Shown: piece after piece, positions 23,440 to 49,844 of the stretch | Layout: the number at the start of each line of letters is the position of its first letter | Numbering within the stretch: the stretch's first letter is position 1 | Origin: Escherichia virus TH27 | Sequence record: MT446401.1 | Strand: one strand, 5' to 3' | DNA: 52,344 bases | The notes under the pieces: model-generated | Told to the model about the DNA's origin: nothing | The model's database searches: none | The model's input: only the letters and a program-made list of their open reading frames with translations | Translations under genes and position numbers: made by a program

Positions 23440-24186
23440 ATGTCACCGAACTTTGAAAACACGCTACAGAGCCTATTCCCTGGTGAAATCATCACGCTAA
23501 TTGAAGTTGATGCCACCAAGTTTGGAGGGAATGTTTATCGGTTCCATGGGGAGAATATCCAGTTCACACCAGAAGAAATTATGGCAGCTACGCAGCCTGG
23601 CGGGAGCCTACAGCCAAAGTCAATCATCTTTCATGGGAATGAGTACGGTGCTCGGCCTTTCGGCATTTCAGGAATTGAGATGAATGGGAATGGTAAGGCA
23701 GGAAAGCCGCAGCTAACTCTATCAAACCTTGATAGTCGCGTATCTGCGCTAATTCGGTCATACAACGGCATGATGCAAGCCAAGGTGACAATATGGATTA
23801 CCGCAAAAGACCTGCTTGCAGACGACGGCTCAGTAGCTTCTGGTGACTATCGAAAATACGTTTATTACATCGAGAGGCCAAACCTTGTAAACAACAATGT
23901 CGCCAGCTTCGACCTAACTTCGCCATACGATATGGACGGCATCATGATCCCACCGCGAGTTACTCAGAGCGTGTGCTTTTGGGCCATGCGTGGTTGGTAT
24001 CGAAGCGGTCAGGGGTGTGGGTATAATGGAGCGGCAATGTTCGACAAGGATAACAAACCAGTCAGTGAACCAGGCCTTGATTACTGCGCGGGAACTGCAA
24101 CTGCTTGCAAACTGAGATTTGGCGCTGATAACGAACTCGATTTTGGCGGTTGCGCGATCGCCTCACTTGACAGGAAAAACCAATGA
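23440..24186 (+). CDS. Minor tail protein, lambda L-like (248 aa)
   Basis: Position; C-terminal cysteine cluster; RBS GGAGG. Confidence 0.8.
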   Translation: MSPNFENTLQSLFPGEIITLIEVDATKFGGNVYRFHGENIQFTPEEIMAATQPGGSLQPKSIIFHGNEYGARPFGISGIEMNGNGKAGKPQLTLSNLDSRVSALIRSYNGMMQAKVTIWITAKDLLADDGSVASGDYRKYVYYIERPNLVNNNVASFDLTSPYDMDGIMIPPRVTQSVCFWAMRGWYRSGQGCGYNGAAMFDKDNKPVSEPGLDYCAGTATACKLRFGADNELDFGGCAIASLDRKNQ

Positions 24187-24917
24187 TTAACGGCAAAATT
24201 AAGATGGCAATCTTCGAACATGCAAAATCAGTTTACCCCAATGAATGTTGCGGGGTGGTCACTCAGAAAGGACGAGTGCAAAAATACTGGCCTATTGACA
24301 ACGTTCACTCGGAACCGGAAAAAGGTTTTCAGCTTCATTCGGTACAGTACGCTTGCGTTGAGGATGACGCCGACCTAACTACAATCGCTATCGTCCATAG
24401 CCATACTGGCGACGGGGCCACCACTTTACCAAGCGCTCACGACCTGTGTATGTTAAACGAGATGGAAGTGCCATGGGTTATTGTAAGTATTCCGGAAGGT
24501 GATATGAGAATCGTTAACCCTGAAGCCATGCCTCTGATTGGTCGCCCATGGTCGCTCGGATCGTTCGATTGCTGGGGATTGGTGATGGCGTGGCACAAAG
24601 AACATGGCGTGATCCTGAATGACTTCCGAAAGCCTTACGAATGGTGGAAGCCTGAATATGGAGAGAATCTATACCAGGACAACTACATTAAGGAGGGGTT
24701 CGTTGAAACAGGAAAAGATCCAGAACCTGGTGATATGGTTATCATGAAACTACAGGCTGATGTGTGGAATCACGCTGGGATTTACCTTGGAAATAATCAA
24801 CTCCTTCACCACGCATTCGGTAAGCTGTCAAAGACGGATATTTACTCAGGCTGGTTCCAGGATCACACAGTTATGGTTTGCAGACATAAGGAATTAAAGA
24901 ATGAAATCATGCTCTAA
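24183..24917 (+). CDS. Tail assembly protein, lambda K-like (244 aa): JAMM/MPN plus NlpC/P60-like
   Basis: HSHTGDGATTLPSAHD metal-binding motif; C-terminal Cys/His; ATGA coupling. Confidence 0.8.
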   Translation: MINGKIKMAIFEHAKSVYPNECCGVVTQKGRVQKYWPIDNVHSEPEKGFQLHSVQYACVEDDADLTTIAIVHSHTGDGATTLPSAHDLCMLNEMEVPWVIVSIPEGDMRIVNPEAMPLIGRPWSLGSFDCWGLVMAWHKEHGVILNDFRKPYEWWKPEYGENLYQDNYIKEGFVETGKDPEPGDMVIMKLQADVWNHAGIYLGNNQLLHHAFGKLSKTDIYSGWFQDHTVMVCRHKELKNEIML

Positions 24918-25395
24918 GTGCGGAGAGGTTAAACCTCTAGATATGTTCTATAAAAATAGCGGTTGCGTTGGTGGATATAGGCATGACTGCAAGAGCTGCG
25001 CAAACAAAGCAAGAAAGATTGCTAGAAGTAGAGATATTGACACAACAAGGGAGTATGGTAGGAAGTATGCTAAAGAGTGGATTTCAAGAAACGCAGAGAA
25101 AACAAAAATGTATGGCTATGAAAAATTAGACAAAAAGAAAATCAGAGATAACGACCTTGATTTGGATTTTTGCATTAATGAAATGAAGAAGCCATGTATT
25201 TATTGTGGATTCACTGATAATCCATGTAACGGACTGGATAGAATTGATAATTCCATTGGTCACATAAAAGAAAACTGCGTACCATGCTGTCAGTTGTGTA
25301 ACGTAACAAGAATGGATAATTACTCACATCAAGAGTTCTTAGAATATATGGCTCCTGGTATAGTGGCGTTAAGAAAAAGTAGAGGTGAAATATAA
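24901..25395 (+). CDS. HNH homing endonuclease (164 aa) inserted between tail genes K and I
   Basis: Cys-rich zinc-ribbon segments, GLDRIDNSIGH...N motif; AT-rich relative to neighbours. Confidence 0.75.
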   Translation: MKSCSKCGEVKPLDMFYKNSGCVGGYRHDCKSCANKARKIARSRDIDTTREYGRKYAKEWISRNAEKTKMYGYEKLDKKKIRDNDLDLDFCINEMKKPCIYCGFTDNPCNGLDRIDNSIGHIKENCVPCCQLCNVTRMDNYSHQEFLEYMAPGIVALRKSRGEI

Positions 25396-25988
25396 TGTTA
25401 AAAACAATTAAGCTATCCGGTTCGCTGGGCCGTCGATTCGGTGTTTTCCATAAGTTCGACGTTGACTCATACCCCGAAGCAATTCGGGCGTTATCCTCCC
25501 AGGTGGAAGGGTTCAAGGAGTTTATGCAGAGTGAGATCGGTTCACGTATGCACTTTGCTGTGTTCGTTGACGGAAAGAATGTAGGCCAGCATGACGAGGC
25601 CGCGTTCAGTTGCGCAAAGGAGATTAGGGTAATCCCGATCCCTACAGGTTCAAAGAGTGGAGGCATGTTCCAAATCGTATTGGGTGCTGCAATGATGGTT
25701 GCCGCATTCTACACTGGCGGCGCATCACTAGCGCTTATGGGCACATTCGCAACGTCAGCATTTATGATGGGTGGGGCAATGGTTCTCGGCGGTGTAATGC
25801 AGATGATTTCACCACAACAGGGCGGAGCTAAGATGGAAATTCAGAGCAGCAAGAATAGGCCATCTTACGCATTTGGCGGGGCAGTGAACACCACGGCGGC
25901 AGGGAACCCGATACCTATCCCATACGGGTACAGAACTGTTGGCGGGGCTACTTTCTCAGCGTACAGCCTGGCAGAAGATATGGACTAA
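25395..25988 (+). CDS. Tail assembly protein, lambda I-like (197 aa)
   Basis: Gly/Ala/Met-rich hydrophobic central segment; position before J. Confidence 0.8.
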   Translation: MLKTIKLSGSLGRRFGVFHKFDVDSYPEAIRALSSQVEGFKEFMQSEIGSRMHFAVFVDGKNVGQHDEAAFSCAKEIRVIPIPTGSKSGGMFQIVLGAAMMVAAFYTGGASLALMGTFATSAFMMGGAMVLGGVMQMISPQQGGAKMEIQSSKNRPSYAFGGAVNTTAAGNPIPIPYGYRTVGGATFSAYSLAEDMD

Positions 25989-25994
25989 TTAATA

Positions 25995-26019
25995 ACCTCC
26001 CTTGTGGAGGTTTTTTTTC
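25995..26019 (+). terminator. Rho-independent terminator / attenuator
   Basis: acctccc-ttg-tggaggt plus T8. Confidence 0.65.
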
Positions 26020-26064
26020 GCCTGTATAATGAAAATCAAACAAACGCACAAAAGGTTAAACATT

Positions 26065-29000
26065 ATGAACAAATATGATGTAACGGGCCGTAAAGGTGGG
26101 AGCAGCAAGCCACATACCCCACAGGAGATGGAAGACAATCTGATCTCAATCAATAAAATCAAGGTTCTCCTGGCTGTAAGTGATGGCGAGGTTGACGGCA
26201 ATTTCTCCATGCAGGATCTGTATCTCAATGATGTGCCAGTTATCGCACCTTCTGGTGAAGTAAACTACAACGGAGTTAAAGCTGAGTTCCGACCAGGTAC
26301 GCAGACTCAGAGTTACATCCAGGGTTTCGCCGACACCGCCGCCGAGTTTACGGTAAATCGTGAGTTGAAGACCACGACACCGTATGTTATCTCAATTACC
26401 AATAAGCAACTTTCGGCGGTCAGGGTTAAAATTATGATGCCGCGCGGTGTTAAAACTGAGAGCAATGGCGATATGGTTGGCGTTAGCGTTAACTACGCGG
26501 TTGACATGGCGGTGGATGGCGGTTCCTACAGTGAAGTCCTTAACGACACGATTAACGGCAAGACAATGAGCGGATATGATCGCACTCGAAGGATTAACCT
26601 CCCGTCATTCAACAGCCAGGTTCTGTTAAGGGTTCGCAGGATTACAGCAGACTCCACTGATGCCAGGCTGGTTGACGCCATTAACATTCAGTCTTACGCA
26701 GAGGTCGTTGACGCCAAGTTCAGATATCCACTGACTGGTTTACTTTACGTTGAGTTTAACTCTGAGCTATTCCCTCAGATCCCAAGCATCAGCGTGAAAA
26801 AGAAATGGAAGCTGATTAACGTACCGACAAACTATAACCCTGAGATGCGTGAGTATAGCGGCACGTGGGATGGGAGTTTTAAAAAAGCATGGTCAAATAA
26901 TCCGGCGTGGGTGCTTTATGATTTGATCACCAATCATCGCTACGGACTCGACCAACGTGAATTAGGGATCGAGGTCGACAAATGGTCACTTTACGACGCC
27001 GGGCAATACTGCGACCAGAAAGTGCCAGATGGTCATGGTGGAACTGAACCACGCTATCTTTGCGATGTGGTTATTCAGTCTCAGGTTGAGGCGTACACCC
27101 TGGTTCGTGATATTTGCTCAATTTTCCGTGGAATGAGCTTTTGGAATGGTGAGAGTTTATCAATCGTTATCGACAGGCCGCGTGAGCCGTCCTACATCTT
27201 CACAAACGATAACGTAATTGATGGTTCGTTCTCTTACACTTTCGCCAGTGAGAAGAGCATGTACACGTCCTGTAACGTGACGTTTGATGATGAGCAGAAT
27301 ATGTATAGCCAGGACGTCGAAGGTGTATTCGACCTTGAGGCATCATTGAGGTTCGGTCACAACCCAACAAGCATCACTGCGATCGGGTGTACGCGTCGAA
27401 GCGAGGCCAACAGGCGCGGACGGTGGATTCTTAAAACAAACCTGCGTAGCACTACGGTGAACTTTGCCACAGGACTGGAAGGCATGATCCCAATGGTTGG
27501 TGACGTAGTTTCAATCGCCGACAATTTCTGGTCAAGCAACCTCACACTTTCACTTTCTGGTCGTGTGATGGAGGTTTCTGGTTTGCAGGTGTTTACGCCA
27601 TTTAAGGTTGATGCTCGCCCAGGTGATTACATAATCATCAATAAGCCGGACGGGAATCCGGTTCGCAGGACTATTGCCAGCGTGTCTCAGGACGGGAAGA
27701 CAATCCAGCTAAACGTTGGATTTGGGTTTGACGTTAAGCCTAATACAGTTTTCGCAATCGACCGCACTGACGTAGCTCTACAGCAATACGTTGTAACATC
27801 AATCGGTAAAGGAGACGGTGATGAGGAGTTTACATATAGCATCACGGCAGTTGAGTACGACCCGAATAAGTACGACGAGATCGACTACGGCGTAAACATT
27901 GATGACAGGCCAACTAGTATTGTCGATCCTGACAACATCATGCCACCAGATAACATCGACGTTTCTTCATACTCCAGGGTTGTTCAGGGGATGAGCGTTG
28001 AAACCATGGTTGTTGGTTGGGATAAGGTTCAGTACGCGAGCCTTTACGATGTGCAGTGGCGCAAGGATAATGGCAACTGGATGAACGTACCGCGCACAGC
28101 TAACTCGGAAGTTGAGGTTGAAGGGATTTATGCAGGCAATTATCACGTGCGCGTAAGGAGCGTGGCAAGTTCAGGAAATACTTCGCCATGGTCTAATATA
28201 GTTAGCGTTGCGCTGACAGGTAAGATCGGAACGCCATCATCGCCTATTAATATCACGGCGTCTGACGATGAGGTGTTTGGTATTAGGATTAAGTGGGGCT
28301 TCCCTACAGATGCAGGAGATACGGCATACACTGAATTGCAGCAGGTTAAGGATAATGGTGACGGCACATACAATCCAGAAAACGCATCGCTGCTAACGCT
28401 TATTCCGTACCCTCAGTACGAATACTGGCACTCAACCTTACCGGCAGGGATGGTCATCTGGTACAGAGCGAGACTGATAGACAGGATCGGAAACCAGTCT
28501 CCATGGACTGACTTTGTTAGAGGAATGACTTCTGACGACGTTTCTTCGATTATCGGTGATATCAAGGTTGATATTGAAGACTCTGATGGATATAAGTACC
28601 TACTACAGAACGCAATTGATAACAGCACTGATATCCAGAATCAGGCCGAATCAATCATTGAAAACGCGCTCGCGAATGATTCTGACGTGAGGATTATGAC
28701 CAAGGAGAATGGAAAGAGGAAAGCGGAATTTAGGCAGGCGGTTGTTCTTATTGCTGATGAGACACAGGCCCGAGTAGATGCTCTAACTGAGCTTAAGGCG
28801 CAGATTGATGATGAAGTGGTTGCATCAATTACTGAGGTTAAAACAGCGCTAGCAACAGAGACTGAGGCAAGAACCTCAGCTGACACGGCGTTAAACGCGA
28901 GGCTTGGTGAGAACGAGGCGGCGTTAACTCAGAAGTTAGAGTCATATGCAACAGCAGACGCTGTTGGTGCACAGTACGGAGTTAAGCTTGGCCTCAAATA

Positions 29001-29445: not shown

Positions 29446-29470
29446 AAGCCCCTTTCGGGGCTTTTTCTTT
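29446..29470. terminator. Terminator hairpin between convergent genes (T-run on + strand only)
   Basis: aagcccc-tttc-ggggctt with T-run on + strand; - strand side has only an interrupted run. Confidence 0.75.
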
Positions 29471-30432
29471 TAGTAGAAGTTAGGAATGAATGGAAGTGCC
29501 ATTGATATGTTTGTGTCGAATGGGAATTGAGCGCCAGTCTGAGTTGAATAGTTGCCTATTACAGATCCTGGAACGGCCCTAACGGAGCCGCCAGACATGC
29601 AAACCCCCTTATACCGAAGGTTGTTATACCCACCTGTAACTCTAGTCGTAGCGCCGCATCTAAGAAGTGGGAAGAAGCCACCATTTATTGACTGGTATCC
29701 ATTGTTAATCTGGATGAATCCACCCAGAACGAAAGGTCTGCGAACACTAGAGAAAACAATCTGGCCAGATCCGTTTGACATTGTAAGTCCTGGGCCTGCT
29801 GGCGGCGGCTCATTTCTGAATATAACCAGCTGGACGTAAGTGCTAGCCCCAACGTCATCAATCCCGCCGTAGTTTGAATCCCTGCACCATATCGTACTTC
29901 CATCACTCTCAAGCGACACGTTTGGGTTATCCCACTTACCGAAAGGTATTCCGCTGACAGGAAGTGACGCAGCACCATTTACCTGAATCCCACCAACCCA
30001 TGCAGCAGACATTAGCCTTGAATTGCTTGATATTGCCAGGAAGTCAGTTGAGTTTTCGACAAGCACCCCTGGGCTTGATGAGGACGCTGCAGGTAGAATC
30101 TCAAAGCACTGACCACCAAACTGCAATATCCGACCATTCGCCCCGTTAAAGTTGCTTAAGGTAATCCTTCCGACTCCATCATTTACCTTTGAGAAGCCAT
30201 TCATATAATAAACTTCAGGAACAACATCATATGCATCAACATATACAGCCTGCGTCGGCAAGCAGAATGCAGTTGAGCCAGGAGACATGGATAACCCAAA
30301 ATCCCATGAACTAACCGGAGACGAAATCCCGCTTGTATTTATCGATCCAGTCACAGCAGGCGCTCTCAATCCTGCTGTTATTTCCATCGCTGGCCTTCCA
30401 TCGTTAAGGTCGATCAGTATACCATGCCCCAT
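29470..30432 (-). CDS. G/S/N-rich protein (320 aa), possible receptor-binding or fiber-associated protein
   Basis: Start moved to ATG at 30432 (RBS AAGGAG 7 nt upstream, just after lipoprotein stop); function inferred only from composition and position. Confidence 0.6.
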   Translation of the reverse strand: MGHGILIDLNDGRPAMEITAGLRAPAVTGSINTSGISSPVSSWDFGLSMSPGSTAFCLPTQAVYVDAYDVVPEVYYMNGFSKVNDGVGRITLSNFNGANGRILQFGGQCFEILPAASSSSPGVLVENSTDFLAISSNSRLMSAAWVGGIQVNGAASLPVSGIPFGKWDNPNVSLESDGSTIWCRDSNYGGIDDVGASTYVQLVIFRNEPPPAGPGLTMSNGSGQIVFSSVRRPFVLGGFIQINNGYQSINGGFFPLLRCGATTRVTGGYNNLRYKGVCMSGGSVRAVPGSVIGNYSTQTGAQFPFDTNISMALPFIPNFY

Positions 30433-30433
30433 C

Positions 30434-30676
30434 TTACCACTCCTTAGAACCGTGATCTGCAACCGAACCGCCGTAGCCGCCACCTGCTTTTGATTCAATA
30501 CCAGCATAGCGAATATCAACCTCACCAGCTGGAACCACCACGCCACCTTTCCACTTCGCAACGCAAACATCACCAGCCTGGGTAGCGCACCAGCCGTCAG
30601 GTCGGTGGCCGGAAGAACAACCTACAGTCATGATTACTGCTGCTGCGATGATTGCTGATTTGATGAAGTTAGTCAT
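30434..30676 (-). CDS. Lipoprotein (80 aa), possible superinfection-exclusion lipoprotein
   Basis: Signal peptide with lipobox VGCSS; RBS AAGGA; sits beside receptor-binding genes. Confidence 0.7.
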
Positions 30677-30716: not shown

Positions 30717-30756
30717 ACTATACACCAACCATTAATTTAGTTTTAGCAATTCGTGC
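30717..30756 (-). promoter_or_regulatory. Palindromic box plus TATAGT (- strand) with CATCGAAACGAA leader
   Basis: Box 30742..30756, hexamer complement 30717..30722, leader 30700..30711; overlaps end of Rha-like gene. Confidence 0.5.
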
Positions 30757-31361
30757 GTTTTACCCGTCAGTGCGATAATTGTATCTTTCGATACCTCCAG
30801 CTTCATTTGTAATCCTTCGCATTGAGCCTGATATGAATACACGTTTTCCTGCGACTCATAATATCTATTGTTTTCGATTCGAATATTAGCCACCAAATCG
30901 TCGATTTGAGAGCCAGAACCTTCAGACTCTAGAATCTTATCAAGTACCTTGCTTTGCGCGTAGTACAGGTCTTCTATGCGGTGCTGCGCTGAAATGGCTC
31001 TATACTTCTGTTGGTGCTCATCAATAACCTCGTCAATTGAAACCATTTTGGAGTTGTGAGATTTAAGAACATTAACTTCATGCTCAAGCGACTTTATTTT
31101 CTGGATCATCTTCATTCTGATTTTTGCGCTGTATTTTGCAACAAGGCATAGCGTGTGATCCTTATCCAGAATGGCTACGTTATGCATCTTTCCTTTATGA
31201 TATTCTTGCTCCTCAAATTGAGGAACAAGGTTTTCTCCATATAAATCAACATACATAGCATTGACATCCCTTATAATGTTGTCGTGACGAACTCCTGTAA
31301 TCTTGGCAATCTCAAGGCTGGTCATGGTCATTTCTTCGTTTGTGATGGTTAATTCGTTCAT
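30732..31361 (-). CDS. Rha-family phage regulatory protein (209 aa)
   Basis: N-terminal [19 protein letters not shown] segment characteristic of Rha-type regulators; RBS GGAG. Confidence 0.7.
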
Positions 31362-31903
31362 TTTTCAATCTCCATTAGTGATCGCGTGATTGCGATGCGT
31401 GTATTTTGCACACTTTAATCTGATTGTCTTTAGCTATTCGTGCTTTTTGGTGTCAAATATGCAAATGCAACGATATACGCGTAACCGATGTAACTCGATG
31501 TATACAATCTAATCCTCGGAAAATTGTATACGCCCTGTTACGCCGATTTACGCTATAGTTACATTAAAATATCTATATATATCAACCTTTTACTCTTATT
31601 ATTATTATTATATATATTACTGTGTATATCGTGTAACTACTTCTATAGAGTGTTCCGATTATAAATTTCTAATATGGTTATTTATACAGTATTTAATCAC
31701 AAATACACCAATGCACCCTCAGCGAAAAATGATATACACGATATACACACTGTTTACATTAAGCTATAGCTGGGCTGGATAGCCATTTTATGTAACTAAC
31801 GCCATTGCATACACGCAATTACAAATATCTACACGTAACCACTTGACTAACGCAACCAAGCGTGTATAGTTAGCCACATCAACAACGAACGAGGATTAAA
31901 GAG
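31362..31903. other. 540-bp AT-rich intergenic region with TATAC(A/G)C-type repeats between divergent operons
   Basis: No ORF; repeated atacac/atacgc units, tandem gatatacac x2 at 31730..31749, (TTA)5 at 31596..31610. Confidence 0.7.
31843..31870 (+). promoter_or_regulatory. sigma70-type promoter (TTGACT-16-TATAGT)
   Basis: TTGACT 31843..31848, 16-nt spacer, TATAGT 31865..31870. Confidence 0.55.
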
Positions 31904-33030: not shown

Positions 33031-33393
33031 ATGATCTCATTTAACTATGTGAAGCTTCTAGCTCATAGGGTTATATGGGAAATGCACTACGGACCTATAC
33101 CAGAAGGTTACGAGATAGACCACATTAACGGAATAAGAAGTGATAACAGGATTGAAAACCTAAGACTTGTAACTAGAGCCATCAACAATAAAAATAAAAA
33201 GATGCAGTCAAATAACACATCAGGATTCACAGGTGTTGTTTTTGTTAAGCAAAGATGTAAATGGAACGCAAGGGTAAAGGTAAATGGAGTGCAGAAAAGC
33301 CTTGGTAGTTTCAATACAGCAATTGAAGCGAAAGAGGCAAGGGAAAGATACATCTCAATGAATGGTGATTTTACTTTAAGGCATGGCAGGTAG
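33031..33393 (+). CDS. HNH-AP2 homing endonuclease (120 aa from ATG; in-frame N-terminal extension back to 32926 has no ATG/GTG/TTG)
   Basis: HRVIWEMHYGPIPEGYEIDHINGIRSDNRIENLR motif; upstream in-frame KYIDGNLYWIKSG matches N-termini of the HNH genes at 44399 and 49326. Confidence 0.7.
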   Translation: MISFNYVKLLAHRVIWEMHYGPIPEGYEIDHINGIRSDNRIENLRLVTRAINNKNKKMQSNNTSGFTGVVFVKQRCKWNARVKVNGVQKSLGSFNTAIEAKEARERYISMNGDFTLRHGR

Positions 33394-44398: not shown

Positions 44399-44881
44399 AT
44401 GAATTGGAGTGATGTATTTAATTATAAAGATGGAGTTCTTTATCATGCCGCAAATCCATGCAGAAGGCATGATGTAAATGCTGGTGACGTAGCGGGCAGG
44501 GTTGCTGCTAACGGCTATCACTACGTTGTGCACAAGAACAAGTTCTACAAGCGCTCCAGGGTAGTTTGGGAAATGTTTAATGGTGAAATACCTGATGGTT
44601 TTGTGATAGATCATGTAAATCATGACACTGAGTGTGATCTCATAGAGAATCTAGAGTGCAAACCAAGGCGTGATAACATGGTTAACGTTAAGTTAAGAAG
44701 TGATAGCAGTTCTGGGGTTTCAGGGGTTAGCATGAAGAAAAATGGAAAGTGGAGAGCGTACATAACAATAATGGGAAAACAAAGGTGTAAAGTTTTTGAT
44801 AAATTTGAAGATGCGTGTTCTCAGAGGATAGAGTGGTTGGTTTCCAATGGCTTTCATGAAAATCATGGTGGGGTTTTCTAA
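44399..44881 (+). CDS. HNH-AP2 homing endonuclease (160 aa)
   Basis: DHVNHD...N HNH motif and C-terminal AP2-like segment; RBS CAGGAGG; paralog of 33031 and 49326 genes. Confidence 0.75.
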   Translation: MNWSDVFNYKDGVLYHAANPCRRHDVNAGDVAGRVAANGYHYVVHKNKFYKRSRVVWEMFNGEIPDGFVIDHVNHDTECDLIENLECKPRRDNMVNVKLRSDSSSGVSGVSMKKNGKWRAYITIMGKQRCKVFDKFEDACSQRIEWLVSNGFHENHGGVF

Positions 44882-49089: not shown

Positions 49090-49329
49090 TTATTTCACCT
49101 CGTCAAACGTTGCGATTCCAGGGATAAACATTCCGACCTTCCAGCCTGCGATAGCAATCCAGCCAGAATCGTGCTTGTGCGGTCGCTCAGCGCCATTAAT
49201 CACCCACTCGTTCGGGATTGTCTTACCGTTAATGATTAGCGGATCAGCGTCGTATACAGAGCCTTTTACGAATGGCGTTAAGACCTTCTTGTCGGTGCTG
49301 CTGATGCAATTTGTGCATATCACTTTCAT
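49090..49329 (-). CDS. Hypothetical protein (79 aa)
   Basis: ATGA coupling with upstream HNH gene. Confidence 0.65.
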   Translation of the reverse strand: MKVICTNCISSTDKKVLTPFVKGSVYDADPLIINGKTIPNEWVINGAERPHKHDSGWIAIAGWKVGMFIPGIATFDEVK

Positions 49330-49844
49330 AATTTACCGCCATGATTTTCGTTAAAGTTAAATATTTTATTTGCCTCATTCCTTGCGGCAACCGCATCATC
49401 AATGTTCTTAAATGTTCCAAGTTTGCGATTTACTCCATTACTAACAACTTGAGCAACAAAAACCTCATCTCTTTTACACCAATGTATTCCAGTGTGCCCG
49501 CTTTTATTGTCACTCCTGATTTTCTGGTTTTTTGCGTTACCTGATTTATCTGTCATTGATAGATTCTCTATCCTGTTATCATCCCTGATCTTGTTATTAT
49601 GGTCTATAACCTTGGTAACATCCGGTTGTCCTTTGAATATAAACCATACAATCCTATGAGCCGTGAATCTCTCGCCCTTGAATCCCACAAGCCTATATCC
49701 AGTGGCTTTACTTATGCAGCCACACTCCCTTCCTGTTCTATCTATTTGCTTTCTTGATGGTGGTGTTTTCTTCCAATAAAGCCTGCCGTCAATGTATTCA
49801 ATATAATCAACTATATCCTCCGGTATCTGCTTTGCTACTTTCAT
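49326..49844 (-). CDS. HNH-AP2 homing endonuclease (172 aa)
   Basis: YIDGRLYW..., HRIVW, IDHNNKIRDDNRIENL motifs; AT-rich; paralog of 33031 and 44399 genes. Confidence 0.75.
   Translation of the reverse strand: MKVAKQIPEDIVDYIEYIDGRLYWKKTPPSRKQIDRTGRECGCISKATGYRLVGFKGERFTAHRIVWFIFKGQPDVTKVIDHNNKIRDDNRIENLSMTDKSGNAKNQKIRSDNKSGHTGIHWCKRDEVFVAQVVSNGVNRKLGTFKNIDDAVAARNEANKIFNFNENHGGKL

What the first reader, a model, noticed from the sequence alone, without database searches (positions are those of the whole stretch)
24901..25395. HNH homing endonuclease gene inserted between conserved tail genes K and I
In lambda-like tail-tip clusters K and I are adjacent. Here a 164-aa Cys-rich HNH endonuclease gene overlaps the end of K by 17 nt and the start of I by 1 nt. 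It is much more AT-rich than the flanking genes, which marks it as a mobile insertion that has landed inside an essential operon without disrupting it.
Basis: partly seen in the sequence, partly recalled or inferred. Interest (0 to 1): 0.5.

Follow-up and report, generated by a model that had tools for sequence, protein, structure and literature searches.

The report
Mobile nuclease gene between tail genes
A small selfish nuclease gene related to the restriction enzyme PacI sits exactly between two essential tail genes of a T1-like coliphage; this is a well-known kind of phage parasite, so the finding is real but fairly ordinary.

Summary
ORF 24901-25395 (+, 164 aa, 13 Cys) overlaps tail gene K by 17 nt and tail gene I by 1 nt. 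Its GC is 36%, against 46% for K and 51% for I.

About 13 GenBank Nouzillyvirus relatives have K and I overlapping directly, with no insert. Alignment puts the 493-nt insert immediately before the ATG of I.

Two metagenomic phages carry the same gene at the same point. It is 97-99.6% identical to the window copy (dS 0-0.06), while the adjoining K gene has dS 0.42-0.76. That indicates recent horizontal spread rather than an ancestral gene.

More distant homologues (56-59% aa identity) occupy the same K|I junction in other Drexlerviridae; one is Shigella phage ESh4, the only carrier among 128 matching records. Other family members occupy the M|L and L|K junctions.

The insert also carries a new ribosome-binding site for gene I.

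Best reading: a free-standing PacI-like homing endonuclease gene, a new member of a known kind. Cleavage activity and target site are inferred, not shown.

The parts
24901..25395 (+). Free-standing PacI-like His-Me finger (HNH-superfamily) endonuclease gene, 164 aa
24902..25394 (+). Inserted DNA (493 nt) relative to the empty K|I junctions of BUCT-XGG-1, XT34 and ESCO41. There is a 1-nt (A) ambiguity at each edge. Two carrier-specific substitutions and a 1-nt deletion at 24893-24900 may also belong to the element.
   Evidence: Alignments A1. All genome-wide matches to insert-free relatives stop at 24896-24903.
24910..24999 (+). N-terminal Cys4 zinc ribbon (C4, C7, C30, C33)
   Evidence: All four Cys are invariant in 57 of 57 family members. 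The region aligns with the N-terminal CxxC...CxxC of PacI.
25195..25311 (+). Beta-beta-alpha-metal catalytic core (residues 99-137). It contains the second Cys4 site (C99, C102, C130, C133), the metal ligands D113 and N134, R114 at the canonical His position, and H121 at the position of the PacI catalytic Tyr.
   Evidence: Invariant columns. Ungapped alignment to PacI residues 87-124. Strands 111-114 and 126-129 and helix 131-137 in the model.
24888..24892 (+). Shine-Dalgarno AAGGA, 8 nt upstream of the endonuclease ATG. In insert-free relatives the same motif (AAGGAG/AAGGAC) serves gene I.
   Evidence: Read from the sequence and from the alignment with empty sites.
25382..25387 (+). Shine-Dalgarno GAGGTG inside the last codons of the endonuclease gene, 7 nt upstream of the ATG of gene I. 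This replacement ribosome-binding site is carried by the insert.
   Evidence: Sequence. The same AAAAGTAGAGGTGA 3' end, encoding ...RKSRG, is present in the ESh4 copy. L007 has a near-identical version (GGAAAAGTAGGGGTGA) encoding the same residues.
24183..24917 (+). Tail-tip gene K (JAB + NlpC/P60). Its last codons were rewritten by the insertion: the C-terminus is KELKNEIML* instead of KELEKC*.
   Evidence: Pfam hits and the alignment with insert-free relatives.
25395..25988 (+). Tail assembly gene I, intact. Its start codon shares one base with the endonuclease stop codon.
   Evidence: Pfam Lambda_tail_I E 3.7e-19. The 5' end is colinear with insert-free relatives.

Best explanation
This is a free-standing homing endonuclease gene (HEG) that has invaded the K|I gene junction of the tail-tip operon of a Nouzillyvirus-like (Drexlerviridae, T1-like) coliphage.

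**The protein.** It is a small two-zinc beta-beta-alpha-metal nuclease of the PacI-like branch of the His-Me finger (HNH) superfamily. D113 and N134 would hold the catalytic metal. Arg114 occupies the place of the classical general-base His. His121, in the loop between the two strands, sits where PacI has its catalytic Tyr and would activate the attacking water.

**Proposed life cycle (inferred).** During co-infection with a related phage that lacks the gene, the enzyme nicks or cuts the empty, highly conserved K/I junction. Recombinational repair from the carrier genome then copies the gene into the break. In the carrier, the insert itself splits the target, which makes the carrier immune.

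**How it fits in the operon.** The element is almost pure coding sequence. It is translated from the ribosome-binding site that formerly served gene I. Its last codons carry a new ribosome-binding site (GAGGTG) for I, so expression of the operon is preserved.

**Shown here:** gene, fold, insertion point, presence/absence polymorphism and recent horizontal spread.

**Inferred:** nuclease activity, target site and the homing mechanism.
For: 1. **Empty sites.** All 13 GenBank relatives that cover the region lack the insert, and their K and I genes overlap by 7 nt.
2. **A near-isogenic filled/empty pair.** Contig L012 is 94-95% identical to the insert-free BUCT-XGG-1 in TMP, M, L, K and J, and 92-94% in I, yet it carries the gene at the same nucleotide position.
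3. **The gene is younger than its flanks.**
   - Window against L012: HEG 97.2% nt identity and dS 0.057; K dS 0.42; M, L and J 77-80% identity.
   - Window against L005: HEG 99.6% identity and dS 0; K dS 0.76.
4. **Site-specific clades.** Homologues with 56-59% aa identity sit at the same K|I junction in Shigella phage ESh4 (Hanrivervirus, the only carrier among 128 matching records) and in contig L007. A sister clade sits at M|L (ESCO41, MM01, L008-L011, L092). One member sits at L|K (L093).
5. **Composition.** Low GC in every carrier: 0.34-0.41 for the gene against 0.43-0.54 for its flanks.
7. **Catalytic and zinc residues are kept.** Eight zinc Cys, D113, R114, N125 and N134 are invariant in 57 of 57 sequences. 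Position 121 is only His (48) or Tyr (9). In PacI, Asp and Asn bind the metal and Tyr is the general base (PMC4081073, PMC5714182).
8. **Precedent.** HEGs near essential and structural phage genes, and PacI-like free-standing HNH genes in phages, are documented (PMC10448857, PMC12724721).
Against: - There is no biochemical evidence that this protein, or any close relative, cleaves DNA. The one PacI-like phage enzyme tested in a marker-exclusion assay (Skunavirus H1-93) was not among those reported to reduce plating (PMC12724721).
- The classical catalytic His is absent.
- No long co-conversion tract could be shown. K and the 5' end of I are about as similar between the window and insert-free relatives (90-95%) as between the window and carriers.
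- Recent substitutions in the gene are fairly relaxed (omega about 0.4, from only 14 differences, against 0.03-0.04 in K).
- The recognition and cleavage site is unknown.
Confidence: 0.72

Rival explanations
1. A domesticated or 'weaponised' nuclease. The gene is mobile in origin but is kept because it benefits the phage. Possible benefits are cutting competing phage genomes (marker exclusion), degrading host DNA, or helping recombination or anti-defence. Self-propagation would not be the main reason it persists.
For: The family is very large (12,955 cluster representatives) and keeps its catalytic residues over deep divergence. Phage HEGs are known to give exclusion and even anti-defence benefits (PMC2790892, PMC13096335). 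This window carries at least three more HNH genes.
Against: The distribution is extremely sporadic: 0 of 13 GenBank Nouzillyvirus-like records and 1 of 128 Hanrivervirus-like records carry it at this site. That argues against a function the phage depends on. Recent evolution is relaxed (omega about 0.4). This reading also overlaps mechanistically with homing, since marker exclusion is a by-product of homing cleavage.
Confidence: 0.14
2. A decaying relic: a formerly mobile endonuclease gene that is now catalytically dead and simply hitch-hikes in the operon.
For: Arg replaces the canonical general-base His. There is no Pfam HNH match. Omega is about 0.4 between recent copies. HEG life-cycle theory predicts degeneration after fixation.
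Against: The ORF is intact in all five K|I carriers examined. All 14 family-invariant residues are kept, and none of the 9-11 recent replacements touches them. The Arg is itself invariant across the family and is shared with the active enzyme PacI. The gene is far from fixed, and near-identical copies in diverged genomes indicate recent successful transfer.
Confidence: 0.1
3. An ancestral operon gene that has been lost repeatedly from most relatives, rather than gained.
For: Homologues lie at the same K|I junction in two different genera of Drexlerviridae.
Against: Synonymous divergence of the gene is at least 7-fold lower than that of the adjoining K gene. GC3 is 0.34 against 0.50-0.55 in the flanks. 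Empty sites are clean 7-nt (Nouzillyvirus) or 20-nt (Hanrivervirus) K/I overlaps with no remnant. This reading would need dozens of independent, precise deletions.
Confidence: 0.03

Closest known systems
Restriction endonuclease PacI (PDB 3ldy/3m7k; His-Me finger 'group 20' of Jablonska et al. 2017, PMC5714182)
   Same: [quoted passage not shown]
- Both have the G-x-D-R motif, with Arg where other HNH enzymes have the catalytic His, and the same Asp/Asn metal ligands.
- In both, the candidate general base lies in the loop between the strands.
   Different: - About 20% sequence identity.
- His121 replaces the PacI catalytic Tyr. The family uses His in 48 of 57 members and Tyr in 9.
- It has an extra three-helix insertion (about residues 31-95) between the zinc ribbon and the catalytic core.
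- It is a phage gene at a polymorphic insertion site, not a bacterial restriction enzyme. Its target is unknown, whereas PacI cuts TTAATTAA.
Free-standing ('intronless') homing endonuclease genes of phages, e.g. T4 mobE, segF/segG; HNH genes of Skunavirus, including two 'PacI-like' ones (PMC2790892, PMC2988022, PMC12724721, PMC10448857)
   Same: A small nuclease ORF wedged between conserved essential genes, with no intron or intein. It is sporadically present or absent among close relatives at one exact site, is AT-rich, and has a phylogeny decoupled from its flanks. Insertion-site-specific clades are also seen in Skunavirus.
   Different: None of the characterised phage HEGs belongs to this sequence family. 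Cleavage, target and co-conversion are not demonstrated here. The very tight packing is a notable detail, but not a new principle: the gene takes over the downstream gene's ribosome-binding site and carries a replacement.
T4 endonuclease VII / F-CphI family (Pfam PF02945; PMC6083498), the label given to the ESCO41 homologue in RefSeq and to phrog_1035
   Same: Same superfamily. Both have a CxxC...CxxC zinc site bracketing a beta-beta-alpha-metal motif with Asp and Asn metal ligands. F-CphI is also a free-standing phage HEG.
   Different: The defining central DHDH motif is DRID here (H41 and H43 equivalents absent). There is no Pfam Endonuclease_7 hit. Endonuclease VII does not appear among the top PDB matches. 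The 'endonuclease VII' annotation is therefore a misnomer.

Membership tests
His-Me finger / HNH superfamily (beta-beta-alpha-metal nucleases) | Beta-hairpin followed by an alpha-helix (beta-beta-alpha) forming the metal site | tested here: met
   [not shown]
His-Me finger / HNH superfamily (beta-beta-alpha-metal nucleases) | Metal-ligand Asp before strand 1 and Asn/His on the helix | tested here: met
   D113 and N134 are invariant in 57 of 57 sequences. They align with PacI D92 and N113. Their role in PacI is described in PMC4081073.
His-Me finger / HNH superfamily (beta-beta-alpha-metal nucleases) | General-base His at the end of strand 1 (the first H of H-N-H) | tested here: not met
   The position is Arg114, invariant in the family, as in PacI (R93). 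This is a known exception within the superfamily (PMC5714182).
PacI-like group (His-Me finger group 20) | Significant sequence and structure similarity to PacI over the catalytic core | tested here: met
   [not shown]
PacI-like group (His-Me finger group 20) | Two structural Cys4 zinc sites per subunit | tested here: met
   C4, C7, C30, C33 and C99, C102, C130, C133 are invariant. Metal binding itself was not tested.
PacI-like group (His-Me finger group 20) | Tyr in the inter-strand loop acting in place of the His general base | tested here: inconclusive
   The aligned residue is His121. Across the family it is His in 48 members and Tyr in 9, and nothing else. This fits a catalytic role at that position, but it is not the PacI residue.
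PacI-like group (His-Me finger group 20) | Homodimer cutting a short palindromic site | not testable with these tools
   No oligomer prediction or cleavage assay is available.
T4 endonuclease VII / F-CphI family | Central DHDH motif between CX2-4C and CX2C (PMC6083498), and a Pfam PF02945 match | tested here: not met
   The sequence is D113-R114-I115-D116. There is no Pfam hit at E<=0.1, and none among the 25 Pfam families matched by most of the 55 family members.
Canonical Pfam HNH families (PF01844, PF13392, PF14279 etc.) | Match above the gathering threshold | tested here: not met
   The window protein has no hit. Only 5 of 55 relatives touch PF01844, at a best E of 0.0064.
Free-standing homing endonuclease gene (HEG) | Presence/absence polymorphism at one exact site among close relatives | tested here: met
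   13 empty GenBank relatives. L012 is filled while BUCT-XGG-1 is empty, with 92-95% flank identity between them. ESh4 is the only carrier among 128 records.
Free-standing homing endonuclease gene (HEG) | Gene history decoupled from flanks (recent horizontal spread) | tested here: met
   dS of the HEG is 0-0.057, against 0.42-0.76 for K. Nucleotide identity is 97-99.6%, against 77-92% in the flanks.
Free-standing homing endonuclease gene (HEG) | Co-conversion of flanking markers | tested here: inconclusive
   Only about 8 nt immediately 5' of the gene are carrier-specific. Elsewhere K and the 5' end of I are equally conserved against insert-free genomes.
Free-standing homing endonuclease gene (HEG) | The enzyme cleaves the insert-free allele near the insertion site | not testable with these tools
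   Requires biochemistry or mixed-infection genetics.

The most novel reading that the evidence does not exclude
This protein may represent a very large, Pfam-unmodelled and biochemically uncharacterised clade of PacI-like nucleases (at least 12,955 50%-identity clusters). In this clade a loop His (or Tyr) has taken over from the classical strand His as general base.

In T1-like phages the clade may have radiated into lineages that each home to a different gene junction of the M-L-K-I tail-tip operon. These lineages would recognise the overlapping stop/ribosome-binding-site/start sequence. They would carry a built-in replacement ribosome-binding site, so that translation of the operon survives the invasion.
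Probability: 0.35. Interest if true: 0.5.

Novelty: new member of a known kind. Interest (0 to 1): 0.33.

Why it matters
- **Annotation.** 'HNH' is only loosely right here, and 'endonuclease VII' (the RefSeq and PHROG label) is wrong. The family is PacI-like and is missing from Pfam.
- **Phage genomics.** The three gene junctions of the M-L-K-I tail-tip operon are recurrent landing sites for selfish nuclease genes in Drexlerviridae. These insertions create local discordance in alignments and phylogenies of these widely used therapeutic and model coliphages.
- **Enzymology.** The family offers natural His/Tyr variation at the position of PacI's unusual catalytic Tyr. It could also yield new rare-cutting or nicking enzymes.
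- **What it does not change.** None of this alters the accepted picture of how phage homing endonuclease genes behave.

Tried and rejected
1. **Long co-conversion tract.** I first saw an 'island' of high identity (K 88-92%, HEG 97-99.6%, 5' end of I 95-98%) in otherwise 77%-identical genomes and read it as co-conversion. The control against insert-free relatives showed the same 90-95% in K and the 5' end of I. Allele sharing showed no gradient beyond about 8 nt. The claim was dropped. The dS contrast between the HEG and K still stands.
2. **Paralogues in the window.** None were found by blastp against all six-frame ORFs. The other three HNH genes in the window belong to a different family, phrog_99.
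3. **Pfam and NCBIfam assignment.** No usable hit.
4. **Own promoter or terminator in the insert.** The scan gave no excess over shuffles. The one 10-of-12 promoter-like match (25369-25396) ends on the start codon of I, so it cannot serve I.
5. **Target-site immunity substitutions.** I looked for changes downstream of the insertion, in particular loss of the TTAA motifs in the first codons of I. ESh4 and L007 differ from empty alleles there. The window does not, and some empty genomes share the 'carrier' variants. No conclusion was drawn.
6. **Original PacI structure paper.** PMC2886031 is not held. The mechanism was taken from reviews (PMC4081073, PMC5714182).
7. **XT34 HNH gene.** The gene at L|K in phage XT34 turned out to be an unrelated HNH family, with a nominal 20% identity.

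Full report
**1. The observation**

- The + strand carries an ATG-initiated ORF at 24901..25395 encoding 164 aa, of which 13 are Cys.
- The preceding ORF (24183..24917) has Prok-JAB and NlpC/P60 domains, the architecture of lambda tail-tip protein K.
- The following ORF (25395..25988) matches Lambda_tail_I. Phage_tail_L and Phage_min_tail (M) lie just upstream (PHROG tail families).
- The ORF has 36.0% GC, against 46.4% for K, 51.4% for I and 46.6% for the whole window. GC3 is 0.34 against 0.50 and 0.55.
- Fewer than 1% of 495-nt windows are as AT-rich.

**2. What phage this is, and what relatives look like**

- The window is a Nouzillyvirus-like member of the Drexlerviridae (T1-like coliphages). 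It is about 85-89% identical over the left 25 kb to phages TH30, TH21, XT34, BUCT-XGG-1 and ESCO41.
- Thirteen GenBank records cover the M-L-K-I-J region, and all of them lack about 490 nt at the K|I junction. Every genome-wide match stops at 24896-24903.
- In the insert-free genomes K and I overlap by 7 nt (ATGTTAA).
- Alignment puts the insert at 24902..25394 (493 nt), directly in front of the ATG of I, with a 1-nt ambiguity.
- The insertion rewrites only the last residues of K (KELEKC* becomes KELKNEIML*).
- The endonuclease ATG now uses the AAGGA Shine-Dalgarno that serves I in empty genomes. The last codons of the insert (…AGT AGA GGT GAA ATA TAA) provide a new GAGGTG Shine-Dalgarno 7 nt before the ATG of I.
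- A promoter and terminator scan found nothing above shuffled expectation inside the insert. The element is essentially bare coding sequence embedded in the operon's translation.

**3. Evidence that it is mobile**

No GenBank phage in the collection has a protein more than 60% identical to this one. Two metagenomic contigs do.

| Comparison with the window | HEG nt identity | HEG dS | K dS | Other flanks |
|---|---|---|---|---|
| L005 (2.5 kb) | 99.6% | 0 | 0.76 | M and L 77%, K 88% |
| L012 (7.4 kb, IMG/VR) | 97.2% | 0.057 | 0.42 | M, L and J 77-80% |

- Both contigs carry the gene at the identical position.
- L012 is otherwise a BUCT-XGG-1-type phage: 94-95% identical to that insert-free genome in TMP, M, L, K and J, and 92-94% in I. 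This gives a near-isogenic filled/empty pair.
- The gene therefore shares a much more recent ancestor than the DNA around it. It is present or absent among close relatives, and it is compositionally foreign.
That criterion clearly fails.

A caveat applies. I first read the raised identity of K and the 5' end of I between carriers as a co-conversion tract. The same 90-95% identity is seen between the window and insert-free genomes, and allele sharing shows no gradient beyond about 8 nt next to the gene. Co-conversion is therefore not demonstrated.

**4. Site-specific clades**

- More distant homologues sit at the same K|I junction in other Drexlerviridae:
  - Shigella phage ESh4 (Hanrivervirus, 56% aa identity). 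It is the only record with the insert among 128 that match its K-I region.
  - Contig L007 (59% aa identity).
- These copies share the C-terminal ...RKSRG(E/D) and the ribosome-binding site for I that it encodes.
- A sister clade, 50-75% identical among its members and 41-50% to the window protein, sits at the M|L junction. It includes ESCO41 gp59, MM01 and L008-L011; L092 also sits at M|L.
- One member sits at L|K (L093).
- Phage XT34 has an unrelated HNH gene at L|K.
- In Dhillonvirus, a family member follows the DNA polymerase gene.
- All three internal junctions of the tail-tip operon are thus recurrent landing sites, and related endonucleases tend to share a site. This is the pattern expected for site-specific homing, and it was also reported for Skunavirus HNH genes (PMC12724721).

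**5. What the protein is**

- Pfam and NCBIfam give no usable hit. Scanning 55 relatives gives only marginal touches of PF01844.
- PHROGs places it in phrog_1035, labelled 'endonuclease VII' (E 1.2e-23).
- An exhaustive HMMER search finds 12,955 cluster representatives at E<=1e-3.
- In an alignment of 57 full-length members, two Cys4 sets are invariant (C4, C7, C30, C33 and C99, C102, C130, C133). Y101, G111, D113, R114, N125 and N134 are also invariant. Position 121 is only His (48) or Tyr (9).
- A profile of this alignment hits PacI at E 1.4e-9 and the Geobacter HNH nickase 4h9d at 1.7e-5.
- The AlphaFold2 model is very confident (pLDDT 97).
- The ungapped alignment GLDRIDNSIGHIKEN...CCQLCN against PacI GVDRSDSFEGYSPQN...CFICN gives these equivalences: D113 to D92, R114 to R93, H121 to Y100 and N134 to N113.
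- In PacI the metal is held by an Asp and an Asn. A Tyr replaces the usual His as general base (PMC4081073, PMC5714182).
- The protein is therefore a PacI-like His-Me finger nuclease in which His121 most likely plays the PacI Tyr role. This is an inference.
- It does not meet the DHDH definition of the endonuclease VII/F-CphI family (PMC6083498). That annotation is a misnomer.

**6. Mechanism, with status of each step**

- **Shown:** gene, fold, conserved active-site residues, exact insertion point, presence/absence polymorphism, and recent transfer among diverged phages.
- **Inferred:**
  - The enzyme recognises the conserved empty K/I junction. The blocks CATAAGGA upstream and AATTAA.(C/T)TATC(C/T)GG downstream are shared by Nouzillyvirus and Hanrivervirus.
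  - It cuts during co-infection and is copied in by recombinational repair.
  - The insert splits the site and so protects the carrier.
- **Unknown:** whether it nicks or makes double-strand breaks, whether it dimerises like PacI, and where it cuts.

**7. Rivals**

- **A domesticated competitive or accessory nuclease** is possible and is not exclusive of homing. The extreme sporadicity argues against dependence on it.
- **A dead relic** is unlikely. All invariant residues are kept, the ORF is intact in five carriers, and there is evidence of recent spread. However, omega of about 0.4 between recent copies shows weak constraint.
- **An ancestral gene lost repeatedly** is effectively excluded by dS, GC3 and the clean empty sites.

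**8. Novelty and score**

- Free-standing HEGs wedged next to essential and structural phage genes are well documented (PMC2988022, PMC10448857).
- PacI-like free-standing HNH genes have already been noted in phages (PMC12724721).
- This is a new member of a known kind.
- The modestly interesting extras are these:
  - The family is huge yet absent from Pfam, and it is mislabelled.
  - It shows natural His/Tyr alternation at PacI's unusual catalytic position.
  - All three junctions of one operon are used.
  - The ribosome-binding site is neatly handed over to the downstream gene.
- Interest is about 0.33.

Noticed in passing
window 33031-33393 (+), 44399-44881 (+), 49326-49844 (-): Three further HNH endonuclease genes of a different family (phrog_99, E 1e-47 to 1e-52). 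Each coincides with a local low-GC patch. The phage therefore carries at least four HEG-like genes.
   Followed up: partly
window 30732-31361 (-): An anti-repressor (Ant/Rha-like, phrog_8235) gene lies in the most AT-rich stretch of the window (GC 0.33 around 30991-31571). It sits on the opposite strand just after the tail genes and may be another acquired gene.
   Followed up: no
window 25994-26022 (+): A strong intrinsic-terminator-like hairpin (AACCTCC-CTTGT-GGAGGTT followed by TTTTTTT) lies between gene I and the J-like host-specificity gene. The mechanical ORF call for J (TTG at 26002) runs through it, so the real start is probably the ATG at 26066.
   Followed up: no
L001 2351-2836 (Escherichia phage XT34); L093 2501-2974; L003 1005-1514 (ESCO41); L172 2480-3004 (MM01); L092 2501-2998: Other Drexlerviridae carry endonuclease genes at the other junctions of the same operon. 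PacI-like family members sit at M|L and L|K, and an unrelated HNH family sits at L|K in XT34.
   Followed up: yes
L004 3539-3560 (Shigella phage ESh4) vs L006 (BEK7): Just downstream of the ESh4 copy, the first codons of gene I differ from insert-free Hanriverviruses at several clustered positions (ATGACACTGAAAACG against ATGACTTTAAAGGTA, including V to T). This could be target-site immunity or a short co-conversion. The window's own junction shows no such cluster.
   Followed up: partly
phage collection records MG0656xx ('Campylobacter phage' A113, A118, E6, C4 ...): Records labelled as Campylobacter jejuni phages are 90-96% identical to E. coli/Shigella Hanriverviruses in the K-I region. The host label looks doubtful.
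   Followed up: no
window 29470-30573 (-): A 367-aa ORF on the opposite strand, immediately after J, matches phrog_1265 ('membrane protein', moron category) at E 1e-126.
   Followed up: no
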